From contig OZ240211.1 of the NCBI GenBank assembly GCA_965197525.1, positions 1,280,001 through 1,344,000 of the forward strand: a stretch of 64,000 nucleotides of DNA. Direction: 5' to 3'. Numbering within the stretch: position 1 is the first letter of the stretch; every line of letters begins with the position of its first letter. Below the pieces are notes generated by a model, which ran no database searches, was not told the origin of the DNA, and worked only from the letters and a program-made list of their open reading frames with translations. The DNA is from Nitrosopumilus sp. GTDB taxonomy: Archaea; Thermoproteota; Nitrososphaeria; Nitrososphaerales; Nitrosopumilaceae. A program made the translations under genes and the position numbers. Positions 35,692 through 53,659 of the stretch are shown here, piece after piece.

Positions 35692-35692
35692 G

Positions 35693-36364
<672 letters not shown>

Positions 36365-36419
36365 ACTACACGTATTTGATAATAATGAATATATTTATTT
36401 TTATAGATATATTAGTTGT

Positions 36420-37580: not shown

Positions 37581-37765
37581 GGAACTGCTGATTGGTAGAA
37601 CGTGTTTGTATAAGACGGTAGAGCTTTTTAAAATGTGTGCGGTGCTCGTCAAGACGGTGTTTTTCTAAAGACGATATGTAATGGTTTGAAAACACCGTTG
37701 GTTTTAAGATCCTGTTAGACTCGCGTCAGACTAGGCGATCCGATAGAATGAGGTGTGGGGATTAT

Positions 37766-38167
37766 TTAGGATGGTTTGTGTTGTTGGTGTTTTGGTTCTA
37801 ATGGTATGGTTTGATACATCCATTCACGGCCTGCTCTAGCTCTACGTGTTCTGCCTTTGGTTGAAAATCGTGACAAATAAGTCGATATTACGCTTAGTTT
37901 TACAGGTTCGTTGTACTCGTCTTCATATTTTTCTAAAATATTAGTAGAGGTAAATTTGCCTAATGGATAGAATTTGTCAACAATATGCCATATTTTAGCA
38001 CCAAGAGAGTCTAAATTTGTAAATTCTTGAGGGTTCTCAATATCTACTAAATCCATCACTTCAAATAATTTTAGAACCTTATCCCGAGTAACATTTCCAT
38101 TTAATTTAATATCATAACTGGCACCAGTTGAGTCTTCAATATTTATTCTAATTTGTTTTTTGGTCAT
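37766..38167 (-). CDS. Hypothetical origin-adjacent protein, possible winged helix
   Basis: 133 aa, divergent from cdc6; SVISTYLSRF..GR..R..AGREWMY resembles a wHTH. Confidence 0.7.
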   Translation of the reverse strand: MTKKQIRINIEDSTGASYDIKLNGNVTRDKVLKLFEVMDLVDIENPQEFTNLDSLGAKIWHIVDKFYPLGKFTSTNILEKYEDEYNEPVKLSVISTYLSRFSTKGRTRRARAGREWMYQTIPLEPKHQQHKPS

Positions 38168-38321
38168 TATTAGGATTTATACTAGCAAACATTAACAATT
38201 CAAAGCTTCATAAAATATTTGTTAACTAATTGAATTGTTAAGTTTGACTGTATGGGTTGTGCGTAGGTAGTTTTTTAATATTAACAATAATTTTATTAAA
38301 ATAAAGGAGTTTTATGGGTGG

Positions 38322-38500
38322 TTATGCCTAGAGTGGAAATGAAGGGGTTGAAATGGTATGGTTAACAGTGTTAATAATGGTTTTTATGCCTAGAGTGGAA
38401 ATGAAGGGGTTGAAATGTGGTTTTTCTTCAATATCTTAACAAGATAATAACAATTTGTTAATGAATTGGTGTTGGAACCCACACACCAGTATTTCCACTC
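38322..38500. other. Replication origin with ORB elements
   Basis: Two identical 34-bp copies of TTATGCCTAGAGTGGAAATGAAGGGGTTGAAATG (38322-38355, 38384-38417) and an inverted core ATTTCCACTC (38491-38500), in an AT-rich region directly upstream of cdc6. Confidence 0.85.
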
Positions 38501-38647
38501 TTATTTTCTTTATTTTTTTTGAGAAAATTAATTTATATAAAAATAATTAATTACAAACTAAATTACAATTGTTACTTTACTCTTTACTTTATTATTTCAA
38601 CTATAATATACTAATAATGAAATCTAATGGAAATATAGGTGTGTGGG

Positions 38648-39850
38648 ATGTCTGACCCAATAGATAGGTTACTTGATGCAGCTGAATCTGGGAAACTAAT
38701 TATAAAAAATCGTGAAACCCTTCAATTTACATACATACCAACAACAATCTTACATAGGGATACGGAACAAGAAAAAATAACACAATCCCTCTTACCAATT
38801 TTAAAACAATCACGACCATCAAACCTTCTTGTATATGGTAAACCTGGAACTGGAAAAACTTTAGTGGTAAAAAAAATCCTTTTTAAAATTCAAGAACGGG
38901 TAGAAAAATCCAAGTTCCCAATTAAACTCATCTATTCTAATTCAAAAGACGAAACAACATTATATGGATTATTAGTTAGTATAGGTCGGCAACTTGATTT
39001 AAACGAAAAAACCTTACCATCAACAGGTCTAGCAACAAGTGAAGTCTTTAAGAGACTGCTAAATAGAATAACTGCTGATAACCTTAATGTGATTTTAGTA
39101 ATTGATGAAATTGATTATCTTACACAACTAGTAATTAAAACTGGCAGAGATATTTTATATCAACTTACACGCGCAAATGAGAGATTGCAACAGGGCTCGC
39201 TAACAATAGTTGGTATTTCAAACGATTTAACATTTAAAGAAAAATTAGATCCAAGAGTAATTAGTAGTTTAGGCGAGGAAGAGATTGTATTTACAAACTA
39301 TAATGTAGAACAGATTAGAAAAATTCTTGAAGAAAGAGTTAATGAATCTTTTATAGAGAACGCAGTTGATGATGCAGCTTTAAACCTCTGTGCTGCTCTT
39401 GCAGGAGCAGAACACGGTGACGCACGCAGAGCAATTGACCTAATCCGTGTAGCCGGAGAGATCGCAGAACGCCAACAATCAAACCACGTTACAGCCATCC
39501 ACATACGAGAAGCAACTCAAAAAATAGAAGAAAACAAAGAAGAGATCACGTTACGATCGTATACCCTACAAGAAAAACTAGTTCTTCTCGCTATTATGAA
39601 AGCAAACGGATCATCTACTGGTGAGGTTTACATTTCTTACAAAAACCTCTGTAAAACAGTCAATCAAGACGCATTAACCCAGAGACGCGTTACACAAATA
39701 CTCAATGAAATTGAATTATCTGGGCTGATCACCGGACGAGTCGTTCATCAGGGCATCCATGGAAGAACAAAGAAATACAAATCCACAATCTCTTCTGAAA
39801 TAATTAAAAAAACATTTCATGACGATTTAGTTTTACAAGACATTATCTGA
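38648..39850 (+). CDS. cdc6: Orc1/Cdc6 replication initiator
   Basis: YGKPGTGKT Walker A, VIDEID Walker B, GDARRAIDL, C-terminal wHTH. Confidence 0.97.
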   Translation: MSDPIDRLLDAAESGKLIIKNRETLQFTYIPTTILHRDTEQEKITQSLLPILKQSRPSNLLVYGKPGTGKTLVVKKILFKIQERVEKSKFPIKLIYSNSKDETTLYGLLVSIGRQLDLNEKTLPSTGLATSEVFKRLLNRITADNLNVILVIDEIDYLTQLVIKTGRDILYQLTRANERLQQGSLTIVGISNDLTFKEKLDPRVISSLGEEEIVFTNYNVEQIRKILEERVNESFIENAVDDAALNLCAALAGAEHGDARRAIDLIRVAGEIAERQQSNHVTAIHIREATQKIEENKEEITLRSYTLQEKLVLLAIMKANGSSTGEVYISYKNLCKTVNQDALTQRRVTQILNEIELSGLITGRVVHQGIHGRTKKYKSTISSEIIKKTFHDDLVLQDII

Positions 39851-41284
39851 TGTCATATTGTAATTTTGATAGACAGGTTTGCCAGTTTTCAAATTCACCA
39901 TAATTGCAATACCCGGATTTGGAATCATTCCAACACTTGCTTGGAAAGGCGTTTGTTTTTGCCACGAACCTGAATTTATTAATAAAACCCCCCTGTAATT
40001 TGCTATTTGTGCTCTATGAACGTGACCTACATGAAAAATATCTGGAACGTCTTCAATTACCAATAAATCCTCACTTTCAGGCGCAGTTGGTGTTCGACTA
40101 CCATAAATCGGGTTGAGATGTCTTGCTTTTAGCAGATGTTTCATTACATCGGCTGGTTTGTCATAACTTAACCCCGGGGTTGTCTTTACAATGTCATCAA
40201 TACTCTGACCGTGAAACATTGTTACTTTAACACCATTCAAGGAGACAACTGCAGGATTACCTACCATAAAGACATTATCCCGTTCCCACAAACCAGAGTT
40301 GTATTTTTTTGGTATGGCAGGCTGTGGTAGCGCTCGTCTTCCAGGATCGTGATTTCCAGGCATTATAACAATCTGTATGTTTCTAGGAACCTTGTTGATT
40401 AACTCCTCTGCTTTTTGTAACTGTTGTTCTATTGTTTGACAGACCAGCTCCTTATCTTGGTTAGGATATATCCCAACCCCATCTACTAAATCTCCTGCTA
40501 TTAGGATAAAGCGAACTTTTCTTGCAATTGGATCTGGACTAGACATCCACAAAACAAATCGTAGGAACTCCTCCTCCATAAAATACTTACTTCCTATATG
40601 TAAATCAGAAAGAAACACCGCATATACCTCCGACCCCGATCTGTTCTTCTCCTCTTGTGGTACGTCTGGAAAGATTATATCATTAATAACAAAAGCTAGT
40701 TTTTTACCCAACGTTGTTTTTATTATTACAAACTGATCAACTAAGAGCGTACCTGCAACCTTTTGCAACTCTGAATCAAAGACGACGCCTTCAAACACGC
40801 CTGTTGAATCCTCTATCTCCACCTTTGTAACACTTCTTTCGGCCTCTCTCTTATTAACAAGCCCACATACATACATACTATCATTCGACTTTGTACTTTT
40901 TACTGATGCAATTGTTTTAATCATCTTAGATTCCGGTCTCTCCAACACAATTTGCCTTAGTTTATGAAAACGGTTAGCAAACAACGCATTATATCCATCA
41001 ACCCCTTCTCCAGTAGCTATCTTATTAGTGGGTTCTGATACCACCCTCACTTCATTTTCTAATGTTAGATCTTCTTTTATCCCAAGATACGTCTCTAAGT
41101 CATCTTGATCAATTTGAAATATTTTCTGCTTGGTCTTTTTCATCACTAAATCTTTTATGATCTTCTCTGACGCTTTTATCTCTAAACTTCCTAACAACTC
41201 TAAAGCCCTTGGATTAATTTGAACACCTTTCTTTAACGCATAGTTTAGTACAGGGATCATCTCTTTTTTCATACTCATAAACAC
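39833..41284 (-). CDS. polB: DNA polymerase D small subunit DP1
   Basis: FLSDLHIGS, AGDLVDGVGIYP, PGNHD, FHGQS, HVGHVH phosphoesterase motifs. Confidence 0.95.
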   Translation of the reverse strand: MFMSMKKEMIPVLNYALKKGVQINPRALELLGSLEIKASEKIIKDLVMKKTKQKIFQIDQDDLETYLGIKEDLTLENEVRVVSEPTNKIATGEGVDGYNALFANRFHKLRQIVLERPESKMIKTIASVKSTKSNDSMYVCGLVNKREAERSVTKVEIEDSTGVFEGVVFDSELQKVAGTLLVDQFVIIKTTLGKKLAFVINDIIFPDVPQEEKNRSGSEVYAVFLSDLHIGSKYFMEEEFLRFVLWMSSPDPIARKVRFILIAGDLVDGVGIYPNQDKELVCQTIEQQLQKAEELINKVPRNIQIVIMPGNHDPGRRALPQPAIPKKYNSGLWERDNVFMVGNPAVVSLNGVKVTMFHGQSIDDIVKTTPGLSYDKPADVMKHLLKARHLNPIYGSRTPTAPESEDLLVIEDVPDIFHVGHVHRAQIANYRGVLLINSGSWQKQTPFQASVGMIPNPGIAIMVNLKTGKPVYQNYNMTSDNVL

Positions 41285-41325
41285 GGTTTGGTTTAATTAA
41301 ATCTGCTTACAACAACTCTCAAATA

Positions 41326-41871
41326 TTGTCAAATATCAACTGCAATGTGAATAAATCAAGAATAATAATATTTTTTATATTTATGTGGCTATTTGCAGCA
41401 ATCTTTCAACTCGGATCCATGTCCTCCGTTAGCGACGAAGACGCAATGATCTTTATGGAAGAATTCGAAGAGCTCGTTCTTAACATTGATGCATTTGGAA
41501 TATTTTTACATAATACAACTATTGCACTACCAATGTTTATTCCCGGAGCTGGCGTTGCTTGGGGTCTTTTTTCTGCTTGGTCCACAGGATTTGCTTTTGC
41601 AGCAATTGTTACTACAACGCCTGAACTGTCACACATTCAACCACTAACAATTATCTTCTTATCACCGTTCGGATTAATGGAGATCGTTTCATACTCTTTG
41701 GGCATTTCTAGAAGTTTTATCTTAATTAGGGCGATTGGTAAAAAAATGGATTTAATACCTTTCATCAAGCCAACATTGATTGAAATCGGGATTGTTGTAG
41801 GTCTTCTCTTAGCTGGCGGGTATCTAGAATTTTACATGTTAGAACTAGCTCGAGACGCCACACCAATCTAA
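41326..41871 (+). CDS. SpoIIM-family membrane protein
   Basis: IFLHNTTIAL, PFGLMEI, LAGGYLEF. Confidence 0.8.
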   Translation: MSNINCNVNKSRIIIFFIFMWLFAAIFQLGSMSSVSDEDAMIFMEEFEELVLNIDAFGIFLHNTTIALPMFIPGAGVAWGLFSAWSTGFAFAAIVTTTPELSHIQPLTIIFLSPFGLMEIVSYSLGISRSFILIRAIGKKMDLIPFIKPTLIEIGIVVGLLLAGGYLEFYMLELARDATPI

Positions 41872-41920
41872 TTAACTAAATATTCCATCTATTGGCCGAT
41901 CAAGTATAACCTTTATGCAG

Positions 41921-42637
41921 CTAGACTTCCCACTGCCATCTGTAATTTATATACGAGTCTAACTTGTTTTGGTGAAACACCATTACCGACATGTCAGAGA
42001 ATTCTTTATCTTCCAACTCTTTTACCATACCCATAAACTGTGTTTCATTTTTTGTTGTTACCGCCTCAAACACGTGAACTTTCATCTTGACAGTATCAAA
42101 CCCACGTTCTTTAAGGTACTTGGCAACCTCTGATGGCATAAAATGTTTGTCTGGTCGTTTTGGCCATGGTCTGGGAACTAATACCACATTATACCCATCA
42201 ATTATTGCTTTCTGTAATTCTAGTTTTTTATCTTCAATCGACGCAGTTACATGCATTGTGATTACTTTGGACTTGTCAAGTGGAACTTGTGCCTTTGCTG
42301 CAGCAACCTGAACCGAACTAATACCTGGAATAATTTCCACCCGTCCAAAAATCTCTGTCAGCCTGTCAACAACCTCCGACTCTGAAAAATTTACATCACC
42401 GGTAAATGGAACTACCAAGATTTTCTCATCCGTTCCCAAGAGAATTTTTTGATAAGTTTCCTCCTGATCGCTCATTGTAATCTCATGAATCTCTTTCCCT
42501 TTCGTCCACTCCTCTATCGTACTCAAGGTGTATTTATAACCAATAACAATATCGCAACTCTGAATAATCTCCTTTACAACCCCCGTTACATATTTTGGAG
42601 AACCAGGACCAACACCTACCGCAAAAACTTTTCTCAA
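41921..42637 (-). CDS. cbiE: Precorrin-6Y/cobalt-precorrin-7 methyltransferase
   Basis: VGVGPG, TGDVNFS, IIPGISSVQVAAAK tetrapyrrole methylase motifs. Confidence 0.8.
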   Translation of the reverse strand: MRKVFAVGVGPGSPKYVTGVVKEIIQSCDIVIGYKYTLSTIEEWTKGKEIHEITMSDQEETYQKILLGTDEKILVVPFTGDVNFSESEVVDRLTEIFGRVEIIPGISSVQVAAAKAQVPLDKSKVITMHVTASIEDKKLELQKAIIDGYNVVLVPRPWPKRPDKHFMPSEVAKYLKERGFDTVKMKVHVFEAVTTKNETQFMGMVKELEDKEFSDMSVMVFHQNKLDSYINYRWQWEV

Positions 42638-42639
42638 TC

Positions 42640-43179
42640 TTATTTTACAAAACTTTGTCTGTCTTTAATATATTGCACAAAAGATGCCCAATCAACCTTC
42701 ATGTATTTTGTTGGCTCTTTTGCAGGATATTTTACCCAATCTTGAGCTATTGAGTATTGATGCTTCTCTTTTTGGCCATCCTTTTCATACTCAAGCTGTA
42801 ATGAACTGCCCCAATCCTTCTCCGTATAACCAATACTAGTAATATCATCAAAACCTAACTCAACATTTCGTTCATCCTCTAAATCATTCATAAGATCTTC
42901 TTCATTATACCCATCATGCCGAATCATCACATTTCTTGACCTTATGAAAGTAATCACCTGTCTCTGCGTGATTGCCTTCCACCAATTTATCTTTGACTCT
43001 GTCTTATGCACGAACATGAGGTGCTTATCTGTTAGTATCAACATACCTTCCCTTCCCCCGATTGACAGAAACTTTTTAGACTCTCTCCAAACCGAAACTA
43101 TATGAGCTTGGATCTTCTCATCAGATAGCACACTATTAATCCATTTGACTTTATTAAAAACTAATACGGTCTTATTCAA
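42640..43179 (-). CDS. Hypothetical protein
   Basis: 179-aa ORF; EGMLILTDKHLMFV suggests a PH-like beta fold. Confidence 0.7.
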   Translation of the reverse strand: MNKTVLVFNKVKWINSVLSDEKIQAHIVSVWRESKKFLSIGGREGMLILTDKHLMFVHKTESKINWWKAITQRQVITFIRSRNVMIRHDGYNEEDLMNDLEDERNVELGFDDITSIGYTEKDWGSSLQLEYEKDGQKEKHQYSIAQDWVKYPAKEPTKYMKVDWASFVQYIKDRQSFVK

Positions 43180-43350
43180 ATTTTATTTTTTATCTCTTGT
43201 AGATTCTTCCTTACAGGCAACACGTGCGCACACTCTGTTACCATATTTTATTTATTAAACAATACAAGATCGTGATCTCTTGACTTGTATAATTTTTAGT
43301 TTAAAATTTAGACAGCACTAAAATACAATTAGCTTTTAAAGAAGTGTTTA

Positions 43351-44910
43351 TTGATGAAATTATTGAATAAAATATTCCTTATTATTGCAGTCTCGCTATT
43401 TGCAATTGGTTTTACCAACCACGCCTTTGCTCAGTATGACGACAAACTAGTTGTGTTGAACACAAACCATGGAAGCATCATAATTGATTTTTTCCCAGAC
43501 GATGCCCCAAACCATGTAGAGAATTTTATCAAATTAACTGAATCTGGTTATTATGATGACGTGTTATTTCATAGAATTATTCCCGACTTTATGATTCAAG
43601 GCGGTGATCCAAACACAATTGATGGCGATCCGAGTACTTGGGGAACCGGCGGCCCTGCAACAAATCTGGATGCAGAGTTTAATAACATCAAACACAATCG
43701 TGGCATAGTCTCAATGGCTAGGGCTCAAGATCCAAACAGTGCAGGATCACAGTTTTTCATAGTACATAAAGATGCTAACTTTCTTGATGGTCAATATACC
43801 GTGTTTGGCAGAATAGCAACTGAAGAGAGCTTTGCAACTCTTGACAAAATTGCCGCAGTAGAAACAAACGACAGAGACGCTCCCTTGGATCCTCAATACG
43901 CCAGAATTCTATCCGTACTTGTGCTTGATGAAGCTAATGTTCCCGATCTTCTTGAACTAGATGAGCCGCAACGCATTGACACCTTCTCCAACCCCAATAC
44001 ATCTATTCCTCCCCCTGTAGGGGATACAACGTTTGAAAGTGTTGAGCATGATATTAAATTTGATATACCTGAAGGTTGGCTTTTACAAGAATTAGATAAC
44101 ACAGATCCGAACGCTCCTGACATGGTTGCGTTAGGTCCTACAATAGGAAACTTCCCTGCGGCCATATCCTTATCTGTGGAGCAAACTAATGGACAAACAT
44201 TAGATGAGATCGTGGCTGCCGATTTTGAGATTCTAAAAGAAGCTATTGAAGGGAAAATCTTGACAATAATTTCACAAGAGGACACCACCATCATTGACAA
44301 CGAGTCACACAGTGTTGTTGCAGAGAGTGTTTTTGACCTTGGCGGCCAGCCTACTTATATAAAATTCGAGAAAACCATAATCTATGATGAGGAAAAATAT
44401 TATGTATTTACCTATTTTGATGACAAGGACGATTTTGATACACATTTACCACAATTTACGAAACTAATTAACTCTATTGAAATAATATCCGAGCCTACTG
44501 CTTCTACTGACGCCGGCGACATTGACACCGGATCCTCTGATGAAAATGGCGGCTGTTTGATTGCTACTGCAACATTTGGTTCTGAATTGGCACCCCAAGT
44601 ACAACAACTAAGAGAACTCAGAGACAACACCATCTTATCAACGGAATCTGGAACTGCTTTTATGAATGGATTTAACCAGTTTTACTACTCTTTTTCACCA
44701 ATGATTGCTGATCTAGAACGCGAAAACCCACTGTTCAAAGAAATAGTCAGACTCTCAATTACTCCAATGCTAACTACCCTCTCAATCCTTAATCATGTCG
44801 AAGTTAACTCTGAAGCTGAGATGATATCAGTGGGTCTATCAATTATTATGTTGAATGTTGGAATGTATTTTGTAGCACCTGCCGCAATAATTTACAAGAT
44901 CAGACGATAA
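43351..44910 (+). CDS. Secreted cyclophilin + PsbP-like domain + CFI-box-CTERM protein
   Basis: Signal peptide; FHRIIPDFMIQGGDP; KFDIPEGW; C-terminal GGCLIATATFGSELAPQVQQLRELRD. Confidence 0.88.
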   Translation: MMKLLNKIFLIIAVSLFAIGFTNHAFAQYDDKLVVLNTNHGSIIIDFFPDDAPNHVENFIKLTESGYYDDVLFHRIIPDFMIQGGDPNTIDGDPSTWGTGGPATNLDAEFNNIKHNRGIVSMARAQDPNSAGSQFFIVHKDANFLDGQYTVFGRIATEESFATLDKIAAVETNDRDAPLDPQYARILSVLVLDEANVPDLLELDEPQRIDTFSNPNTSIPPPVGDTTFESVEHDIKFDIPEGWLLQELDNTDPNAPDMVALGPTIGNFPAAISLSVEQTNGQTLDEIVAADFEILKEAIEGKILTIISQEDTTIIDNESHSVVAESVFDLGGQPTYIKFEKTIIYDEEKYYVFTYFDDKDDFDTHLPQFTKLINSIEIISEPTASTDAGDIDTGSSDENGGCLIATATFGSELAPQVQQLRELRDNTILSTESGTAFMNGFNQFYYSFSPMIADLERENPLFKEIVRLSITPMLTTLSILNHVEVNSEAEMISVGLSIIMLNVGMYFVAPAAIIYKIRR

Positions 44911-44974
44911 CAATAACAGCCACACCAAATCTACAAAATCAACAAGTTTTATTGAAAGTATGATGGTATGGTAA

Positions 44975-46339
44975 TTACCACACATCATCTACTTCATCGA
45001 GTGGCTTGTATTCTTTTTGCGCCTTTACATTTAATATTTTTAATCTTGCAATATCCCTATCAAAGAACAGATCTATTATCCAATCAAGAAGTACCCTAGT
45101 TCTTTTGTCGATTGTTGAAATTTTTGAAAGATATACATTCCTCCAAAGCAACCACGCCCAAAATCCTGAAATATTCATTCCAAAGAACGAAGCAATTCCT
45201 GTCCTTTTTCCAATAATTGCCATTTGTCCTTTGCTACGATACACAAATTTTTTTTTAGCAGTATTTGTGATCAACGCTATCAAGTTTTTTGCAGCGATCT
45301 CTGCTTGTGATTCAGCAATTTGTGCAGTAGGAGGCAACGGCCGTTTTGTCTTAGGCTCTATAAATAATGCTGAATCACCAATTGCAAAGATTCCTGGAAA
45401 TTCTGGAACCTCTAGATATTCATTAACTACAATCTTCCCTCTCTCCGTTTTAAACATTGATCTCTTAATTGTGTTTACTGGAGTGACTCCTGCAGTCCAA
45501 ACTAAAGTTTTAGTAATTATTGAATTAATTTCTGGCCCATCTGACGACTCGTTATCCAACGACTTTATCATGACTTCATCTCCATCAAATGAAGTTACTG
45601 CAGTTTTTAATTTTATTTCAATCCCTCTCTCTGTCATTTTTTCTTTAGCAAAATTTGCTAATTTTTCATTAAATCCAGGCAAAATTATTTCCAGTGCTTC
45701 TAACACGATTACTCTGATATCTTCTTTAAGAATAGTAGGGTAATGCTTACGCGCATCTAATAACAAATCCATTAACTCACCGGCAGTCTCAATTCCAGCA
45801 AAGCCTCCGCCCACTACCACAAAAGTCAAAAACTTTTTACGACGAATAGTATCAGTTTCATTTACCGCTTGTTCTAACATATCAATTACCCGACCTCTTA
45901 ACATGAGTGCGTCATTCAATGTCTTCATAGTATATGCATTCACTTCAACATCTGGCATTCCAAAGAAGTTAGTCTCACTACCAAGTGCAAGTACCAAAAA
46001 ATCATAATGAATCGATAGACTCCTCTTATCTCTGGTTCCCCATAAAGTTACTATTTTTCCATATGGATCAATGTTTTTGATACGGCCCTCATAAAATTTT
46101 GTTTTTTTACATATGGTTCTAATAGGCAAAACAATATGTCTTGCTTCAATCATTGCAGACGCAACCTGTGGTAACATTGGTGTAAACAATAGGAAATTAT
46201 CTTCACTTACAATTACCAATTCTACCTCAGGATCGTCACCAAACTGTGATTCTAACTTTCTGGCACATTTTATTCCAGCAAAGCCTCCGCCTAAAATTAC
46301 AATTTTTTTCTTATTTTTAGCCAAATATGTCCTTCTCAT
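44975..46339 (-). CDS. Type II NADH dehydrogenase-family flavoprotein
   Basis: Two Rossmann motifs (ILGGGFAG, VVGGGFAGIETAGE), LVWTAGV, FAIGD, PPTAQIA. Confidence 0.93.
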   Translation of the reverse strand: MRRTYLAKNKKKIVILGGGFAGIKCARKLESQFGDDPEVELVIVSEDNFLLFTPMLPQVASAMIEARHIVLPIRTICKKTKFYEGRIKNIDPYGKIVTLWGTRDKRSLSIHYDFLVLALGSETNFFGMPDVEVNAYTMKTLNDALMLRGRVIDMLEQAVNETDTIRRKKFLTFVVVGGGFAGIETAGELMDLLLDARKHYPTILKEDIRVIVLEALEIILPGFNEKLANFAKEKMTERGIEIKLKTAVTSFDGDEVMIKSLDNESSDGPEINSIITKTLVWTAGVTPVNTIKRSMFKTERGKIVVNEYLEVPEFPGIFAIGDSALFIEPKTKRPLPPTAQIAESQAEIAAKNLIALITNTAKKKFVYRSKGQMAIIGKRTGIASFFGMNISGFWAWLLWRNVYLSKISTIDKRTRVLLDWIIDLFFDRDIARLKILNVKAQKEYKPLDEVDDVW

Positions 46340-47037
46340 AGTTTAGAAGAATATATGCTATAAACAATTAATTGTTAAATATTTTATTTTATTTTTTGAA
46401 CTATTATTGAGATTTATTATACTATTATGCTTGTTTTTTTACAAATTATTGTATTTAATTCTAATAATAAACAATAATAACAAAGGCACATTATTGATCA
46501 TTTAATTGAAACAGAATAACCACCAACGATTGTTTCATTTTAGCAAACTATGACGCACCAAAACAACACTACACACACATTATATTATCTGGACGACGCC
46601 TCCGTCCAAAATTTATGAAATTTCCTAATTGTAACTAAGTTGACTGTTTAACAAATACAACAAACGATTGTAAATCTGCTTAGATGTATCACAAACTCAG
46701 CTAAACTATACTTATTATATACATCAGTCATTACAATATTATTTTACTTGACGGTTGTAATTCATCAAAAGTATGATTACATAAGATAATACAGTAATAA
46801 TATAGATATAACTGAACAATATACCGAATATGTGTAGTTAAATGAAGACTAATAAGTTGAATCTTGATGCATGAAAATTACTCAAAAATAATTCTGATGG
46901 ATTTATTATATTTGTATTAGTATGATAGGTATGAAATCCGATTATATCGAAAAACAAATCTACACACAAAAAATAGCCAAAGCATAGGAACATCCAGTTG
47001 TACTTTGTGACTCAGATAACAAGACGGAGGTAATACG

Positions 47038-47187
47038 TTGAGCTCTGACATTAAACGCCTTGCTGACTATCTTGGCCTTACCGTTGAACAAGCTGAGAGA
47101 GAGGCAGATCGTAATATGAATCCCATGAAGTATGTTGATTCTACTTGGTCGAAACCCAAACTAGATGAACAAAACAACCAAGATTAG
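47038..47187 (+). CDS. Putative 49-aa microprotein
   Basis: TTG start 6 nt after GGAGGT; MSSDIKRLADYLGLTVEQAEREADRNMNPMKYVDSTWSKPKLDEQNNQD. Confidence 0.5.
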   Translation: MSSDIKRLADYLGLTVEQAEREADRNMNPMKYVDSTWSKPKLDEQNNQD

Positions 47188-47535
47188 ATGATCACGAGGT
47201 TCTCAAACCAATTAATTAATTCCTCCAAATGGCAGATCTGTTACTACCAAATACACATTACACATTTTCTAAAATCAGAAAAATATAACACACAACATAG
47301 TAATTAATCTCACTTTCAATCATATTTCTCAAATGTTTTTTATTATTCAATTAACCACAAATTTGTAACATATAACACCGATTACAGACAGTTCTTAATT
47401 TGTTAATTAATTTAACAGTTAGATCAAACATTCTTTAAACACAGACCATATTCAATATCAAAACAAGTGCACATTATCAATAACTATTGTTAAGATTTTA
47501 AATAATAAAAAGAGGTTAAAATTGATTGAGTTAAT

Positions 47536-47835
47536 CTAGTCGATTAATTCAGTCCAACCTTTGACGAAGACGGAGTTCTTGTAGAGTGGAACTGGTTGTC
47601 CAACTGTAAAGTCCATTGGTCTCATCCAAAAGATCGCTTTTGTTGGGCATACACCGATGCATGCACCATCAGAAATACATCTCTCTGGATAAAATACAAA
47701 TGCTTTACCTCTTTTCCAGCCTTCAACTGGTTTTACTCTAAGGACATCTGGACCTAATGTAGTACAGATTTCTACGCATAGTGCGCATCCGATACACATC
47801 TGTTCACTGATGTCTGGAATAATTCCTACTGGCAT
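47536..47835 (-). CDS. 4Fe-4S dicluster ferredoxin
   Basis: CIGCALCVEIC and CISDGACIGVCP. Confidence 0.93.
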   Translation of the reverse strand: MPVGIIPDISEQMCIGCALCVEICTTLGPDVLRVKPVEGWKRGKAFVFYPERCISDGACIGVCPTKAIFWMRPMDFTVGQPVPLYKNSVFVKGWTELID

Positions 47836-47889
47836 TATGAAATTAAATCTTGAATCATCATTAATATAATTTACCTAAAATTATCATGC

Positions 47890-47926
47890 TATAACGGCGT
47901 TTGTTGTTTTATAACGGCGTTATAAA
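47890..47926. promoter_or_regulatory. Tandem palindromic operator upstream of the ferredoxin gene
   Basis: TTTATAACG-G-CGTTATAAA (47908-47926) plus a partial copy TATAACGGCGTT starting exactly 20 bp to the left. Confidence 0.65.
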
Positions 47927-47964
47927 TCATTATAATAGTGCTTGAGACATTATTTTACAACCTT

Positions 47965-48576
47965 TCAAAGTGGCAAGATTGTAAGGCCGTCTATATTTTT
48001 TTGAAGAAGGTAATTTTTTGTGTTCTTGGACTGTAAGATATAACGTCCTCCTGGGGATAAAAGCCACCTATCATTCTCTGACTTTCTTACCATACCGGTT
48101 ATAACTACCGAGGACTTGGGCTGCCTCACAAAGGATGTTAGTAGCATGATACATGAGTGAACAAATTGTGCATGCTTTTGACTGCCCAATAAATTGTAAA
48201 CTCCATTTAAGGAATCAATGATCACCAAAGACTTCTCTTTTGACGCCTTGGATATCACTCTAGACAGCTTATCTCCCCAATCTCTCTTATTTGGTGTGAG
48301 AATTGATACACCCTCCCTTTTTTGAATCATGCCTGATCTAATATATCCTGTATAAAGCAAGTCAAGATCAATAAAGATGACAGATTCATTTCTTGAATTA
48401 ATTAACCTATCAAGAAACTCTATTTTATGAAAAGGTTCTAAACAAGAAACAATATTTGGATTATACTGATCAAACTCGTTTTGAATCCACTCTAAACTAT
48501 TTTCTACGACGCGTTCAAGGTTTTTATCCAATATCCCTTTAGCGTCGTGTAGATATAATAATGAATATAGTATCAA
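47965..48576 (-). CDS. Hypothetical protein, degenerate RecA/KaiC-like fold
   Basis: LVIIDSLNGVY Walker-B-like segment; no intact Walker A seen. Confidence 0.55.
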   Translation of the reverse strand: MILYSLLYLHDAKGILDKNLERVVENSLEWIQNEFDQYNPNIVSCLEPFHKIEFLDRLINSRNESVIFIDLDLLYTGYIRSGMIQKREGVSILTPNKRDWGDKLSRVISKASKEKSLVIIDSLNGVYNLLGSQKHAQFVHSCIMLLTSFVRQPKSSVVITGMVRKSENDRWLLSPGGRYILQSKNTKNYLLQKNIDGLTILPL

Positions 48577-49724
48577 AAGACGTCTCTGACGACTTTCCTA
48601 AATCTGAGAAGATCTATCTAAACAACGCGTCTGTTTCCCTTATGCCTCTGAAAAGTATTGAAGCCATGAACGAATTTCTAATGACGTATAATTCGTTAGG
48701 TCCTGACTCAAAGGATGCAGGACCGTTCATCAATGAAAAACTACAAAATGTCAGAAGGATCATCTCCAAGATCATCTCCTGTCAGCCAGACGAGGTAGTT
48801 CTTACTCAAAGCACAACTGACGGAATTAACTTTGTAGCAAATGGATTATCCTTTGATAGCAATTCTAGTATTATTATTCGTGGAATGGCACATGAACACC
48901 ATTCTAATTTCTATCCCTGGATTAAATTAAAGGAAAAACAGATTTCCATAAAAAACTTAACGATTGACGATAATGGTTTTTTCAATTTAGATGATCTAAA
49001 ATCATATGTTAGTAATAATTCTAGTACAAAACTAGTTGCATTAAGTCATGCACTGTATAACACTGGCGCTTTGTTACCTGTCAATACAATAGGTGAAATT
49101 CTTCAAGAACACCACGTACCCTTCTTTCTTGATAGTGCACAAACTGTAGGATGTATAGACGATGCAAGCACATCAAAAATACAATGTGATTTTATGTCTT
49201 TTAACGGCTCCAAATGGCTTTGTGGTCCAATGGGTACAGGATTATTTTATTGTAGGAGAGAATCAAGTCACTTACTCCAACCAACAACGATTGGTGGTGA
49301 ATCTGGAATGGTTTACGACGATACCAAGATTGCATTTAAAGATCTGCCTGATAAATTTCAAACTGGTTTTAGAAATTATGTAGGAATTGTTGGATTAGAG
49401 TCATCTGCTAACTATTTAGTGAATTTTGGTATAAACAACATTCAGCAAAAAAACCAGCACCTCTCCAACCTTCTTAGAGAAGAGTTGATAAAAATTCCAA
49501 ATGTTACACTATATGGCCCAAAAGACAAAGATGACAGGACTAGCATTGTCTCCTTTAACATTAGAGGAGTCAGCTCCCAAGAAGTTGTAGATAGACTTGA
49601 AAAACAGAATATTATTCTAGCTGTAAGAGAGATCTTTGATCAAAAGATCGTACGTGCATCTCCGCACTTCTTCAACACAGAATCTCAAATACAAAAAACA
49701 GTTGATGCAATAAAACAACTATAG
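48561..49724 (+). CDS. Cysteine desulfurase-like class V aminotransferase
   Basis: YLNNAS, HEHHSN, LDSAQ, FNGSKWLCGP, RASPHFFN. Confidence 0.9.
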   Translation: MNIVSKDVSDDFPKSEKIYLNNASVSLMPLKSIEAMNEFLMTYNSLGPDSKDAGPFINEKLQNVRRIISKIISCQPDEVVLTQSTTDGINFVANGLSFDSNSSIIIRGMAHEHHSNFYPWIKLKEKQISIKNLTIDDNGFFNLDDLKSYVSNNSSTKLVALSHALYNTGALLPVNTIGEILQEHHVPFFLDSAQTVGCIDDASTSKIQCDFMSFNGSKWLCGPMGTGLFYCRRESSHLLQPTTIGGESGMVYDDTKIAFKDLPDKFQTGFRNYVGIVGLESSANYLVNFGINNIQQKNQHLSNLLREELIKIPNVTLYGPKDKDDRTSIVSFNIRGVSSQEVVDRLEKQNIILAVREIFDQKIVRASPHFFNTESQIQKTVDAIKQL

Positions 49725-49976
49725 ATCTTCTTGCTCTTCAATTACCATCATAGTCAAGGTTGACTGGACTTTGTTAATTCTTCTGATCTTATTTGTAATT
49801 ATTGCACGAAGATTCTCTCCGTTCTCTGAAGATATTTTTATAATAATATCGTATATGCCGTATATTCCCTGAATCTCAAACTGCACGTCCTCTTCTGAGA
49901 GAATCTGTTTTAATTCACTGATAATTGACTGGTCTGATCCCAAATCTGAATTTACTAATACATACGCAGTCGACAT
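49719..49976 (-). CDS. Stand-alone Lrp/AsnC ligand-binding (RAM) domain protein
   Basis: AYVLVN..GIYGIYDIIIKI..IRRINKVQSTLTM. Confidence 0.88.
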   Translation of the reverse strand: MSTAYVLVNSDLGSDQSIISELKQILSEEDVQFEIQGIYGIYDIIIKISSENGENLRAIITNKIRRINKVQSTLTMMVIEEQEDL

Positions 49977-50009
49977 CTAACAACCACATTTAATGACATT
50001 ATTTAATCC

Positions 50010-50017
50010 TTGATTAC
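50010..50017. repeat. 8-bp target-site duplication TTGATTAC (second copy at 52961-52968)
   Basis: Exact direct repeat abutting both TIRs. Confidence 0.85.
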
Positions 50018-51426
50018 GGGACTTAAATACCTAGGTTACATTTCTGCACCAGAGTTTTTTTCTGACAGTCCAACAAATCATTCACAGCTTGGTTCTTGCC
50101 GTCTTTTTTAGAAACAACATGGTGTAAGCCATGTCTTGATTCTTTTGTCTTATGACGATAATCCCTACCGCCACTAATAACACTGACACTATTAGATGTG
50201 CCATTTTTATTAGCTAAAATAATATTTTCCATGCTGTCACACCTGTAGTTTCCATATCTGTCTACAAGCGGGAGCCTTCGTATGCACGGAAGTCCGTAAT
50301 GTCTGATGTTTGCGCCGGCGTTACCGTCTGCATCGCACAAAAATCCACAGCATACGCATTGAAACACATCCCTGGTGGTTCTAGAGTTACAGTTGATCAT
50401 ATTACACTTACTACACGTTATGCTGGTGTAGTGCGGAACAATCTCAAGTGTTTTGGTTCCATGGTTTTCGGCAGTCATTTTTATTCTATCCCCCATTCTT
50501 CCCATACCTGCCCCGTAAATCTCCCTGTTAAGACCGCTTTTCCACTTTTCATTTTTTGCAGTTATATTGCCAATGTTTAGTTTTTCCATGACTATCACTC
50601 CTGTTCTCATCACAATCTGTTTGGCAAGGAAATTATTGTGCTCTGTTCTTCTGTTGTTGAGTGTTTTTTTCATCCTCTTCAATTTGCGATCATTTTTTTC
50701 CATCTGTTACTATGCAGTTTGTGATCATCTCTTTTTGACTGTTGTTTTGAGATCACATCATCTTTTTTTCTCCTACAGGTATAAGGTGTCCTGTAAAAAT
50801 CGGCGTTTATTCCGTCATGAACTACTAGGGATCTCTTAACTCCCATGTCTATTCCGCATACGACTGTACAATTCATATTTTTAGGTCTCCGTATTTTTAG
50901 TGTCAGATGGATCTCAAACGTGCGGTTCGAATCGTTTGTATTGGCAGTGATTTTTTTGGTGTTCTCTACAAGCCTGTATGATACAATGTTGGTCTGATAG
51001 AATTTGCTAGTGCTGTTTTTGTCTCTTTCACATACCAGCTGCTTTGGAAGACTCTTCAAAGACGACAACAGCTCCACCTGGCCTATACTAGGCAGGTTCA
51101 TGTACAGTTTTTTCCACTTTCTCATCCTTAGCGAGGGATTCTGACCGTTTACTGTTATGGATGCATGCTTTGCATTTTTGGAGTTTCTGAACAAACTGTT
51201 TCTGTCAATCCATTTGTTTGGTTTGAGATTTTTAAATGACATGTGCCAGTTGTGGTTCTTACCCCCAGTCTTTTTTGCCCAATTTCGTACTCTACGTTTT
51301 TTTGCGCAGGATTTCAAATGTTTGTCTGCCGTATCATGCCCCTGTTGGAACGCAGTCGTTGCCACATTGGTGTGGTATCTGTTGCTCCATGGTATGGTGT
51401 GATGTATATTAGTAATGGCACGACTT

Positions 51427-52726
51427 CAGTAGTCGGAAATGTACTCCCTAAATCAACCAACAGACGTTCTCAATTATGTTAACATTCTTCGAACATACTG
51501 ATCTATTACCTACAGTGCCCTTACCCACCTTAGTGTTAACGCAAAAAGGTGGGCAGGTACACCACAATAAGATTGGAGAAAGGATACTTAATACCTTGTC
51601 AGGAATACTAGAGTCTGCACCCATAGGATTCTCTACGAGGAACAATGCCCAATACGGGGTAAGCGAGTTTGCAGCCATACTGATGAAGATGTCTGAATCC
51701 AACATAGCTTCTGAGGAGGCAATCCGGCTGCTCAAGCACGCCAAAAAGAGGATGCCGTCGCCCAAGTGGTTTCGCAACATGATAAACTCGCTGGAATCAG
51801 ACAGTGCAGACGAGCTCTGCACGGATATGATCACACGCACCGCAAGGCTTGCCAAGAATACGTGCCGGTACAAGGGGGGCGTACTAGTAGCAATAGATAA
51901 ACACCTGATACCAAGGCACGACAAGGACAACATGTCACATCTGACAAGATCCAAACCAAAGGGCGGTACAAGCAAGTTCGAGTGTTACGCAACAATGCAT
52001 GTGGTAGCAGAACAGGTTCCGGCCATTTTGGAGTGCATGCAGGTCACGCGCAGCGTGGATGACGCCGACTTTGTGCGTAAATTCGTCCAAAAACTCGTGG
52101 ATTACAGGATACGGGCCCGGTTGCTGCTGATGGACCGCGAGTTTTACTCGACTGAGATAATCAAACTTATATCAGAACACGGACGCAAGTTCCTGATGCC
52201 TGCAGTCAAGAACACGGGGATAAAGAGGATGATACAAGAGCATCACGATAAATTACGCAAGGCAGTCTCGCAGTACACCGTCAGAAACGCAGCAGGCCAG
52301 TCTGTCACATTCACATTGATAATCACACCCTCAAAAAAGATAGACGATCCTGATGTCAATACCACGGAAAGATATCATGTCTTTGCCACCAATCTTTCTC
52401 CTACCAAGGCACTAGACGAGATTGAGACGCTTCCGGAGGAGTACCGGAGAAGGTGGGGGATAGAGACAGGATACAAGCAAGTCGAGCAGGTACGCCCGAG
52501 GACAACAAGCCGCAATGCGTCGTTTAGGGTAATCATGTTTTACGTCTCGCTGTTCATGTACAACGCGTGGGCAGTGGAGCAGTATCGTGCAGATTCGAGT
52601 TATGATCGTGTGACTTTGGCACTTGTCGTATATGCTACAGCAATGGTTGCATTGGAATTATGTAGGATGGTGGGTCAACCGTATGATGTCGGAAAACCTG
52701 CCTAATGGGTACATTTCCGACTACTG
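51427..52726 (+). mobile_element. ISH3-family (IS4-like DDE) insertion sequence, 1300 bp
   Basis: Perfect 18-bp TIR CAGTAGTCGGAAATGTAC (51427-51444; complement at 52709-52726); 5-bp TSD GACTT (51422-51426, 52727-52731). Confidence 0.93.
51476..52705 (+). CDS. DDE transposase (ISH3/IS4 type), intact
   Basis: VAIDKH, LLMDREFYS, YHVFATN, YRRRWGIETGYK (YREK signature). Confidence 0.93.
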   Translation: MLTFFEHTDLLPTVPLPTLVLTQKGGQVHHNKIGERILNTLSGILESAPIGFSTRNNAQYGVSEFAAILMKMSESNIASEEAIRLLKHAKKRMPSPKWFRNMINSLESDSADELCTDMITRTARLAKNTCRYKGGVLVAIDKHLIPRHDKDNMSHLTRSKPKGGTSKFECYATMHVVAEQVPAILECMQVTRSVDDADFVRKFVQKLVDYRIRARLLLMDREFYSTEIIKLISEHGRKFLMPAVKNTGIKRMIQEHHDKLRKAVSQYTVRNAAGQSVTFTLIITPSKKIDDPDVNTTERYHVFATNLSPTKALDEIETLPEEYRRRWGIETGYKQVEQVRPRTTSRNASFRVIMFYVSLFMYNAWAVEQYRADSSYDRVTLALVVYATAMVALELCRMVGQPYDVGKPA

Positions 52727-53014
52727 GACTTGTCTTGATTTTGTCATATTTTTCAACCAGTCCTGTCTCTACTCCCATGTTGAAAAAATACGTCTGAAAA
52801 TTTGCAATCTTGCGTGCCTTTAATGACAATTCTTTTGTCTGCCTTGGTTTTACAATCACTGTTCTATAAATAAAATCTTCTATTTCTTTTTTCATCTAGT
52901 TAATAGTCTGTGTATTATATATAAGCGACGTGTATAATGTAATCCAAGTATGTAATTCCCTTGATTACCTTAAAATTGATTAAATACCACTTATTTTTCT
53001 ATACGTACATCAGC

Positions 53015-53659
53015 ATGCATCCACTAGATCTCTCCCTTACCATAACAAAATCAATTCCAACCTTTCCAGGTTCGCCACAACCGCAATTTATCCGATGGGC
53101 AGACATCCAAAAAGACGGATATAACCTTGAATTATTGTTCCTCAGCTCGCATACTGGTACACATATCGATGCACCATATCATTTTGTCAAGGACGGCCTC
53201 AAGATTCACCAAATCTCACTAGCTAGACTAGTTGGCAAGGCCATTCTAATCAAACTTCCCAAAACCAGCTCCAACAACGTTATAACAAAGTCCGATATTA
53301 TAGCATTTGAAAAAATCAATGGAAAGATTCCAAACAACTCTTCGATCTTCTTTTTTACGTCATGGCAAAAAAATCTGAAAAAAGAGAACTATTTTACTGA
53401 AAACCCCGGTCTTGATGCATCCTCTGCTAAATATCTAGCATCAAAAAAGATCAATCTAGTTGGCATAGATTCTCCAAGCATAGATGTTGGGCAAGATACC
53501 TCATACCACGCACACCACACTCTCTCTCGACATAATATTTTGATAGTAGAGAATCTAACGAATTTGGACAAGATATCTTCCATAAACTTTGATTTTGCAA
53601 TTCTTCCATTAAAACTCCAAGATGCAACCGGCTCTCCTGTGCGTGCTATTGCACTATAA
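53015..53659 (+). CDS. Cyclase family / kynurenine formamidase-like hydrolase
   Basis: HTGTHIDAPYHF, VGIDSPS, IVENL, GSPVRA. Start placed at ATG 53015 (MHPLDLS). Confidence 0.92.
   Translation: MHPLDLSLTITKSIPTFPGSPQPQFIRWADIQKDGYNLELLFLSSHTGTHIDAPYHFVKDGLKIHQISLARLVGKAILIKLPKTSSNNVITKSDIIAFEKINGKIPNNSSIFFFTSWQKNLKKENYFTENPGLDASSAKYLASKKINLVGIDSPSIDVGQDTSYHAHHTLSRHNILIVENLTNLDKISSINFDFAILPLKLQDATGSPVRAIAL

What the first reader, a model, noticed from the sequence alone, without database searches (positions are those of the whole stretch)
50010..52968. TnpB nuclease carried by an element with terminal inverted repeats and an 8-bp TSD rather than IS200/IS605 ends
Seen: the element starts GGGACTTAAATACCTAGGTTACATT and ends in the complement of GGGAATTACATACTTGGATTACATT (20/25 match), with TTGATTAC duplicated directly outside. 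Without the nested IS it is 1638 bp: 65 bp of end plus TATA box (TTATATAT, 52917-52924), then tnpB, whose stop codon lies inside the far TIR. There is no transposase of its own. Known: prokaryotic TnpB normally travels with Y1 (IS200/IS605) or serine (IS607) TnpA elements, which have no TIRs and make no TSD; TIR/TSD carriers are typical of eukaryotic Fanzors. GG/GGG ends with 8-bp repeats fit Mutator-like IS256/ISKra4, IS6, IS1595 or ISL3 DDE families. Inference: an archaeal TnpB captured by a DDE-type MITE and mobilised in trans, a prokaryotic parallel to Fanzor capture, possibly using RNA-guided cutting of empty alleles for homing.
Basis: partly seen in the sequence, partly recalled or inferred. 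Interest (0 to 1): 0.92.

Follow-up and report, generated by a model that had tools for sequence, protein, structure and literature searches.

The report
Decayed TnpB cassette with IS1595-type ends
This is a broken copy of a small archaeal jumping gene whose only cargo is the RNA-guided nuclease TnpB but whose ends and 8-bp footprint belong to IS1595-family DDE transposons, so a transposase encoded elsewhere most likely moved it; the general arrangement was published in 2023, but I found no report of this partner family.

Summary
The element spans 50018-52960, with 25-bp inverted ends (20/25) and a duplicated TTGATTAC. Without the nested ISH3-like IS it is 1638 bp.

It is one of about 7 copies in this ammonia-oxidising archaeon. 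Six further copies each have a different 8-bp duplication. Seven congeners show the uninterrupted site with one octamer and no trace of the ends.

The genome has no Y1 or serine transposase. The ends start GGGAATTAT, as do IS1595-family insertion sequences with 8-bp duplications in related genomes.

In one relative, two insertions carry an IS1595 transposase and a TnpB together inside one pair of ends and one 8-bp duplication. This genome has one intact IS1595 transposase gene, 65% identical to such a transposase. All TnpBs with these ends formed one clade in my tree.

The premise is dated: DDE-associated prokaryotic TnpBs and solo TnpBs with matching ends were described in 2023 (PMC10691335).

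The homing idea is untested, and this clade shows no motif beside the duplication. The window copy is dead (nested IS plus a frameshift). This scan has reached the same reading before, including on another copy in this genome.

The parts
50010..50017 (.). Target-site duplication, left copy (TTGATTAC)
   Evidence: The same octamer occurs once in the uninterrupted site of 7 congeners, as TTCATTAC-like variants.
50018..50042 (.). Terminal inverted repeat at the tnpB 3' end (GGGACTTAAATACCTAGGTTACATT)
   Evidence: The consensus in sister copies is GGGAATTATATACCTAGGTTAC. The terminus GGGAATTAT is shared with IS1595-family ISs of relatives.
50023..51426 (-). tnpB, 3' part (about codons 56-522). It holds the RuvC and zinc-ribbon (TNB) domains, is frameshifted by a 1-nt deletion in an A-run near 50697, and its stop codon lies inside the TIR.
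   Evidence: Pfam PF07282/PF01385. The intact sister copy scores 116.9 bits on NF040570 guided_TnpB. The frameshift was located.
51422..51426 (.). 5-bp duplication (GACTT) made by the nested IS, left copy; the right copy is at 52727-52731
51427..52726 (+). Nested 1300-bp ISH3/IS4-type insertion sequence with 18-bp TIRs (CAGTAGTCGGAAATGTAC) and a 409-aa transposase ORF at 51476-52705
   Evidence: PF01609 at 54.5 bits. Best NCBIfam hit is transpos_ISH3 at 158.5 bits, below its cut-off of 225. Four further full copies are in the genome.
52732..52895 (-). tnpB, 5' part (start codon at 52895)
52917..52924 (-). TATA-like box (TTATATAT on the minus strand), 22 nt upstream of the tnpB ATG
   Evidence: Read from the sequence. 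Promoter function is inferred, not tested.
52936..52960 (.). Terminal inverted repeat at the tnpB 5' end (complement of GGGAATTACATACTTGGATTACATT)
52961..52968 (.). Target-site duplication, right copy (TTGATTAC)
49719..49976 (-). Flanking Lrp/AsnC-family gene. The insertion lies 33 nt upstream of its ATG.
   Evidence: PF01037. It sits next to the cyclase gene in 7 congeners.
53015..53659 (+). Flanking putative cyclase gene. The insertion lies 46 nt upstream of its ATG.
   Evidence: PF04199 at 113.5 bits. The start codon was placed by alignment with congeners.

Best explanation
The feature is a decayed copy of a non-autonomous transposon of the IS1595 family (DDE transposase, ISNwi1-like ends). 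Its only gene is the RNA-guided nuclease TnpB.

Shown:
- It inserted into the Lrp-cyclase intergenic region and duplicated 8 bp of target.
- It belongs to a family of about 7 copies in this genome, each with the same 22-25-bp inverted ends and a different 8-bp duplication.
- It was later hit by an ISH3-like IS and a frameshift.

Inferred:
- An IS1595-family transposase supplied in trans binds the GGGAATTAT... ends. It makes cuts in the target staggered by 8 bp and moves the cassette.
- In this genome the candidate enzyme is the single intact gene at genome position 615175-616176.
- TnpB is cargo, not the transposase. Its gene runs to within 5 nt of one end, so an omega-RNA transcribed from its 3' region would take its guide from the duplicated octamer plus the flank. 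This is the geometry needed to recognise the unoccupied site.
- Whether it does that is untested.
For: 1. TIR plus variable 8-bp TSD in 7 copies here and in more than 20 elements of relatives and metagenomes.

2. Empty site: 7 congeners have the intergenic region colinear with the flanks, with one octamer and no TIR remnant.

3. The complete genome has no Y1 (PF01797) or serine recombinase (PF00239) gene.

4. IS1595-family ISs (NF033547 at 154-176 bits, cut-off 75) in related genomes end in GGGAATTATCG... or GGGAATTATAGTGATGG... Where the flanks could be read they make 8-bp TSDs: CAATGGGG, CCCGGCCG, AAAATTAT and AAAAAAAT.

5. Two insertions in genome G145 carry an IS1595 transposase and a TnpB in one unit. 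The unit is bounded by these ends and one 8-bp TSD: L101:1806-4367 with CCGGTATC and L103:1420-4020 with TACCGCGA.

6. This genome encodes an intact IS1595 transposase. It is 65% identical to the TIR-bounded one of G100 and 55-57% identical to those of G125 and G145. An orphan end, GGGGATTATATACATGGGTATAC, lies 1 kb upstream of it.

7. A metagenomic TnpB 80% identical to this family has an IS1595 transposase fragment 500 bp upstream on the same strand.

8. All 25 TnpBs with these ends formed one clade (support 95/91), apart from 13 typical TnpBs.

9. The TnpB looks functional in sister copies. It has an intact 522-aa ORF and scores 116.9 bits on guided_TnpB. The RuvC D/E/D residues and the CxxC...CxxC motif align to ISDra2 TnpB. 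Substitutions between copies are biased to third codon positions, 45:27:15.
Against: - No autonomous IS1595 element with both of these ends exists in this genome. The candidate transposase gene has one orphan end 1 kb away and no matching second end.
- The congener G110 has TnpB cassettes up to 99.5% identical to each other but only a truncated IS1595 transposase that lacks the second half of the DDE domain. Recent movement there would need an enzyme that has since been lost, came from outside, or is something else.
- Family copies here differ by 2-6%, so activity is not very recent.
- No transposition assay exists.
- The ISNwi1-group end consensus 'ggnnatTAT' is recalled from ISfinder and was not checked here.
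Confidence: 0.8

Rival explanations
1. A DDE transposase of another family that also makes 8-bp duplications moves the cassette. Candidates are the IS6-like genes present in about 10 copies here, or IS256/ISL3-type enzymes.
For: The genome has about 10 DDE_Tnp_IS240 (IS6-like) hits. A second, roughly 37-copy TnpB-only family has IS6-like ends, GGTTCTGTGAAATTATAG. G110 lacks an intact IS1595 transposase.
Against: The ends of this family (GGGAATTATATAC...) do not resemble GGTTCTG. None of 13 multi-copy IS families surveyed here shares them. The same terminus is found on bona fide IS1595 elements and on two-gene IS1595+TnpB units.
Confidence: 0.07
2. The TnpB-like protein itself (RuvC fold, D/E/D) acts as the transposase of these one-gene elements, possibly together with host factors.
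For: Across two genera most carriers of these ends encode only TnpB. G110 has near-identical copies without an intact partner. The protein has conserved N- and C-terminal extensions, giving 520-560 aa against about 400 for typical TnpBs.
Against: IS1595 elements without any TnpB have the same terminus and the same duplication length, and two-gene units exist. Internal-deletion and MITE derivatives with the same ends lack TnpB altogether (386 bp and 165 bp). [quoted passage not shown]
Confidence: 0.04
3. It is an ordinary IS200/IS605 (IS1341-type) element moved by peel-and-paste. The inverted ends and flanking octamer would then be coincidental, because TTGATTAC contains the TTGAT and TTAC target motifs of ISDra2 and IS608.
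For: The octamer at this copy contains TTGAT and TTAC. Four of seven duplications in the family contain TCAA/TTGA.
Against: The duplications differ between copies and are always 8 bp. The empty site holds one copy of the octamer. The genome has no Y1 transposase. The ends are symmetrical.
Confidence: 0.01

Closest known systems
DDE-transposase-associated TnpB branches (DDE-1 to DDE-6) and solo TnpBs with matching ends; Altae-Tran et al. 2023, PNAS (PMC10691335)
   Same: A prokaryotic TnpB sits inside a transposon with inverted terminal repeats. The TnpB 3' end lies next to a transposon end. Solo TnpB copies have ends like those of transposase-bearing copies, implying mobilisation in trans.
   Different: The main text names IS630 as a partner family. 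The 2026 review (PMC13565253) names ISL2, IS630 and IS1031. IS1595 occurs in neither main text, and no paper in the searchable library links TnpB to IS1595 as a carrier. The supplementary tables were not available, so I cannot exclude that one DDE branch is this clade.
IS1595 family insertion sequences (ISNwi1-like group, including forms with passenger genes)
   Same: 8-bp target duplication. Ends beginning GGGAATTAT. Transposases of relatives and of this genome pass NF033547 and PF12762.
   Different: This element carries no transposase. Its cargo is a TnpB that fills the whole element. Assignment to the ISNwi1 subgroup rests on a consensus recalled from ISfinder.
IS1341-type (TnpB-only) members of IS200/IS605
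   Same: A one-gene element encoding a TnpB-family protein (NF040570 above cut-off).
   Different: IS200/IS605 elements have no TIRs, make no duplication, insert beside a fixed tetra- or pentanucleotide and depend on a Y1 TnpA. All four features fail here.
Fanzor-carrying eukaryotic DNA transposons
   Same: A TnpB-family nuclease rides as passenger in TIR/TSD transposons moved by DDE enzymes.
   Different: This host is prokaryotic. The review lists Mariner, Sola2, MuDR, Harbinger, hAT, EnSpm, piggyBac, Helitron and Crypton as Fanzor carriers. Merlin, the eukaryotic relative of IS1595, is not on that list. No phylogeny against Fanzors was made here.

Membership tests
TnpB (RNA-guided endonuclease family) | Sequence membership above a curated cut-off | tested here: met
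   The intact sister copy L002:1329-2894 scores 116.9 bits on NF040570 (cut-off 100). PF01385 and PF07282 are above their cut-offs. The window copy's fragments hit PF07282.
TnpB (RNA-guided endonuclease family) | RuvC catalytic D/E/D and a zinc ribbon between RuvC-II and RuvC-III | tested here: met
   The alignment to ISDra2 TnpB (8bf8/8exa) places GIDMG, VMEKLN and DADDNA at D191, E278 and D361. CxxC...CxxC is present. These residues are invariant in 9 homologues. The window copy itself is frameshifted.
TnpB (RNA-guided endonuclease family) | Omega-RNA encoded at the 3' end, with the guide taken from the flank | tested here: inconclusive
   There is no Rfam match. The last 283 nt fold with z = -3.35, but a control stretch of coding sequence gives z = -3.23. 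The last 270 nt vary less between copies (2.9% against 6.7%) and show no third-position bias, but that rests on only 8 sites. The tail is also conserved as protein, with in-frame indels.
IS200/IS605 (IS1341 group) | No TIRs, no TSD, fixed target motif 5' of the left end, Y1 TnpA available | tested here: not met
   TIRs and variable 8-bp TSDs. The empty site has one octamer. No PF01797 hit in a 99% complete single-contig genome.
IS607 | Serine recombinase TnpA, no TIR or TSD | tested here: not met
   No PF00239 hit. TIRs and TSDs are present.
IS1595 family (as a non-autonomous derivative) | 8-bp target-site duplication | tested here: met
   Seven of 7 readable copies here, and relatives.
IS1595 family (as a non-autonomous derivative) | Ends matching those of elements that encode an IS1595 transposase | tested here: met
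   GGGAATTAT is shared with L080/L094, L091/L100 and L078. Further positions (ATGGGTA) are shared between the G100 IS and this genome's orphan end and 165-bp MITE. Two-gene units are bounded by such ends. Identity beyond the first 9-12 nt is partial.
IS1595 family (as a non-autonomous derivative) | A cognate transposase present in the same genome and able to act on these ends | tested here: inconclusive
   One intact gene of the right clade is present, but it is not inside a recognisable element. Activity cannot be tested with these tools.

The most novel reading that the evidence does not exclude
A whole clade of archaeal TnpBs has co-evolved with IS1595-type DDE transposons. It uses a guide read from the duplicated octamer plus flank to cut the unoccupied or excised site, and so biases retention of a cut-and-paste transposon.

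In sister subclades (G110 and genus g18), 10 of 12 insertions have a G immediately 5' of the duplication, on the tnpB-5' side only. That is where a TAM would lie. In the clade of the window element the base is G in only 2 of 10. There the TAM would have to be different or relaxed, or the nuclease would serve another purpose.
Probability: 0.25. Interest if true: 0.65.

Novelty: new variant of a known kind. Interest (0 to 1): 0.45.

Why it matters
TnpB is the ancestor of Cas12 and a compact genome-editing nuclease. Its biology has been worked out almost wholly in IS200/IS605 and IS607 elements, which excise without scars.

Here a whole TnpB clade lives in transposons of a different chemistry (DDE, 8-bp staggered cuts). 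It occurs in ammonia-oxidising archaea in three natural forms side by side: transposase+TnpB, TnpB alone, and MITE.

That makes one question testable: does guide-RNA homing help a DDE transposon? The 2026 review (PMC13565253) leaves this open, arguing that DDE excision already makes a break. The system is also a prokaryotic counterpart to Fanzor carriage, in a superfamily (IS1595/Merlin) not listed among Fanzor carriers.

The general principle is already published, and the window copy itself is dead.

Tried and rejected
- **Partner search in this genome.** I looked for both 22-nt ends with up to 5 mismatches, and for the 12-nt terminus. Only TnpB cassettes, a 386-bp deletion derivative, a 165-bp MITE and orphan ends turned up.
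- **Multi-copy IS survey.** I clustered all repeated ORFs and read the ends of 13 IS families (IS5, IS630, IS4, IS3, IS481-like, ISH3-like and others). None shares these ends.
- **IS6-like gene at 2002343-2003476.** Its repeat unit ends in a tRNA-like sequence and has no TIRs. I rejected it as the partner.
- **Second IS1595 gene at 338464-339318.** It is only 25% identical to the relevant clade, and its 5' side is cut by an IS5.
- **Right end for the 615-kb transposase gene.** I found none. The best candidate, at 617177, matches only about 9 of 12 positions and has no duplication.
- **RNA evidence.** Rfam gave nothing. Folding energy does not separate the 3' tail from coding sequence.
- **TAM-like motif beside the duplication in this clade.** None in 10 sites. 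Three of 6 sites here end in TAA[GT], which I treat as post hoc.
- **Supplement of PMC10691335.** It is not held.
- **The search for related loci in genome contigs.** It returned only an irrelevant weak hit.
- **First TIR-finding script.** It used the wrong search windows, so I repeated it.
- **Flank comparison.** My first cyclase translation was out of frame. The DNA alignment is what counts.
Full report
**1. What is in the window**

The finding's coordinates are exact.
- TTGATTAC lies at 50010-50017 and again at 52961-52968.
- Between them the element (50018-52960) begins GGGACTTAAATACCTAGGTTACATT and ends with the complement of GGGAATTACATACTTGGATTACATT. This 20/25 match is the longest inverted repeat in the region.
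- Inside sits a 1300-bp IS (51427-52726) with 18-bp TIRs, a 5-bp duplication GACTT and a 409-aa DDE_Tnp_1 / ISH3-like transposase. Four further full copies of it are in the genome.
- Without this IS the element is 1638 bp.

tnpB lies on the minus strand.
- Its ATG is at 52895, 65 bp from the end. A TTATATAT box lies 22 nt upstream of the ATG.
- Its stop codon is at 50023-50025, inside the TIR.
- The window copy is broken twice: by the nested IS, and by a 1-nt deletion in an A-run near 50697.

**2. It is a transposon family with variable 8-bp duplications**

The window is part of a complete 2.21-Mb genome (one contig, 99% complete) that encodes archaeal AmoA. It is therefore an ammonia-oxidising archaeon.

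The genome holds four intact 1637-bp copies, each with a 522-aa ORF. It also holds:
- one copy split by a 16.8-kb insert;
- one degenerate copy;
- one 386-bp internal-deletion derivative.

Full-length copies are 93-95% identical to the window copy over the aligned stretch. The flanking octamers are different at each site and are duplicated at each: ATTGAATT, AATTGATT, TGATTTAG, TTTTTTTA, TTCAGTAG, GTTAACAT and TTGATTAC.

In seven congeners the Lrp and cyclase genes are neighbours. Their intergenic sequence aligns colinearly with the window's flanks joined through a single octamer (TTCATTAC-like), and no part of the TIR is present.

The genome has no Y1 transposase and no serine recombinase. 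IS200/IS605 and IS607 mechanisms are excluded.

**3. The cargo is a real TnpB**
- The intact protein passes NF040570 (116.9 bits, cut-off 100), PF01385 and PF07282.
- It aligns to ISDra2 TnpB across the RuvC D, E and D residues and the zinc ribbon.
- Between copies, substitutions in codons 1-431 favour third positions (45:27:15). That points to purifying selection on the protein.
- It is longer than typical TnpBs. Homologues of 41-81% identity from metagenomes are 514-564 aa and share the C-terminal tail, with in-frame indels.
- The ORF ends 5 nt from the element's end. Any omega-RNA must therefore lie inside coding sequence and read out through the TIR.
- Direct RNA evidence is inconclusive.

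**4. Whose ends are these?**

None of 13 multi-copy IS families in this genome has these ends. Several other elements do share the terminus GGGRATTATATA and an 8-bp duplication:
- a second TnpB family here, 29% identical, in a 1350-bp element;
- a 165-bp MITE;
- at least three TnpB lineages in the congener G110, some with perfect 27-bp TIRs;
- many cassettes in a second genus, which has GC-rich genomes;
- metagenomic relatives of the window family.

Searching 150 genomes of the family for PF12762 showed where these ends come from. Bona fide IS1595 insertion sequences end in GGGAATTATCG... or GGGAATTATAGTGATGG... The G125 and G100 copies, whose flanks could be read, make 8-bp duplications. Their transposases score 170-176 bits on NF033547.

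The strongest evidence comes from genome G145, where two separate insertions carry both genes in one unit.
- The layout is outer TIR, TnpB (441 aa), an internal TIR, an IS1595 transposase (320 aa), then outer TIR.
- One 8-bp duplication flanks each whole unit: CCGGTATC at L101:1806-4367 and TACCGCGA at L103:1420-4020.
- The TnpB 3' end abuts the outer TIR, as it does in the solo cassettes.

A metagenomic TnpB 80% identical to the window family has an IS1595 transposase fragment 500 bp upstream on the same strand.

**5. A candidate enzyme in this genome**

There are two PF12762 genes.
- The gene at 615175-616176 is intact (333 aa; 154 bits on NF033547). It is 65% identical to the TIR-bounded transposase of G100 and 55-57% identical to those of G125 and G145.
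- It lies beside a tRNA-Leu gene. An orphan end, GGGGATTATATACATGGGTATAC, sits 1 kb upstream, but I found no matching second end.
- The other gene, at 338464-339318, is only 25% identical.

**6. Age of the association**

I built a tree of 39 TnpBs. The 25 with IS1595-type ends form one clade (UFBoot/SH-aLRT 95/91). They separate from 13 typical TnpBs and from this genome's IS6-ended family.

The outgroup is small and some branches are long, so this is indicative only. Still, ends conserved across proteins about 30% identical argue for an old, stable partnership rather than a recent capture by a MITE.

**7. Weak points**
- G110 has cassettes up to 99.5% identical to each other. Its only IS1595 transposase loses all similarity after about residue 180, so it lacks the second half of the DDE domain. 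The enzyme there was lost recently, came from outside, or is not what I think.
- I looked for a one-sided motif where a TAM would lie, immediately 5' of the duplication on the tnpB-5' side. It is G in 10 of 12 insertions of the sister subclades, but in only 2 of 10 in the window's clade. For this element the homing idea therefore has no support from the flanks.

**8. Comparison with what is known**
- Altae-Tran et al. 2023 (PMC10691335) report six DDE-associated TnpB branches with inverted terminal repeats. They also report solo TnpBs whose ends nearly match those of transposase-bearing copies.
- A 2026 review names the DDE partners as ISL2, IS630 and IS1031 (PMC13565253).
- IS1595 occurs in neither main text, and no paper in the library links TnpB to IS1595 as its carrier. 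The supplement was not available.
- I therefore class this as a new variant of a known kind.

This scan has reached the same reading many times on other DNA, and once on another copy of this family in this genome. I re-derived it independently. I added the empty site for this copy, the two-gene units with their duplications, the tree, and the negative flank result.

**9. Verdict**

The mechanism (DDE carrier, mobilised in trans) is supported, and the partner is identified as IS1595. The Fanzor-parallel framing is correct but already published in general form. Homing is untested. The copy in the window is a pseudogene. Interest is moderate.

Noticed in passing
genome position 226216-227521 and about 36 other sites (outside the window): A second TnpB-only family (412 aa, about 37 copies in several subfamilies) has different, IS6-like ends (GGTTCTGTGAAATTATAG). 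At 226216 it has an 8-bp duplication, CGTTGCTA. Earlier notes of this scan cover it.
   Followed up: partly
L091:266-2396 and L100:266-2396 (genome G100): A 2131-bp IS1595-family element carries a tRNA-Leu(CAA) gene tail-to-tail with its transposase. The two identical copies have different 8-bp duplications (AAAATTAT and AAAAAAAT). In the window's genome the related transposase gene lies just downstream of tRNA-Leu(CAG), and an IS6-like gene lies beside tRNA-Leu(TAA).
   Followed up: partly
genome position 33774-50590 (outside the window): A 16.8-kb insert splits another copy of this TnpB element. The insert ends in inverted CAGTTAACCC sequences that belong to an IS4-type IS (for example 48871-50592), with an apparent 6-bp overlap GTTAAT. 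It may be a compound transposon built of repeated sequence.
   Followed up: no
genome position 891809-891973 (outside the window): A 165-bp MITE with ends GGGGATTATATAGATGGGTTAC / GGGGATTATATATTTTAGTTAC and duplication TTTCATAT. Its ends resemble the G100 IS1595 ends more closely than the TnpB cassettes do.
   Followed up: partly
window 50010-50017 and 52961-53015: The element sits in the short divergent promoter region between the Lrp/AsnC and cyclase genes, 33 and 46 nt from their start codons. It now separates them by 2.9 kb. Each TIR contains a TATA-like TTATATA that could read outward.
   Followed up: no
L112:946-2070 (genome G110): An IS1595-type transposase gene is 74% identical to this genome's over its first 180 residues. 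After that it continues in frame into unrelated sequence with a terminase-like HTH hit. It is either a chimeric or a disrupted gene.
   Followed up: partly
genome position 338250-338450 (outside the window): A small inverted-repeat element of about 150 bp, with ends GGGTTCTGCGGAGTTATCGAGGGATCAAT, lies just downstream of the second IS1595-type gene. An IS5 copy abuts that gene's 5' side.
   Followed up: no
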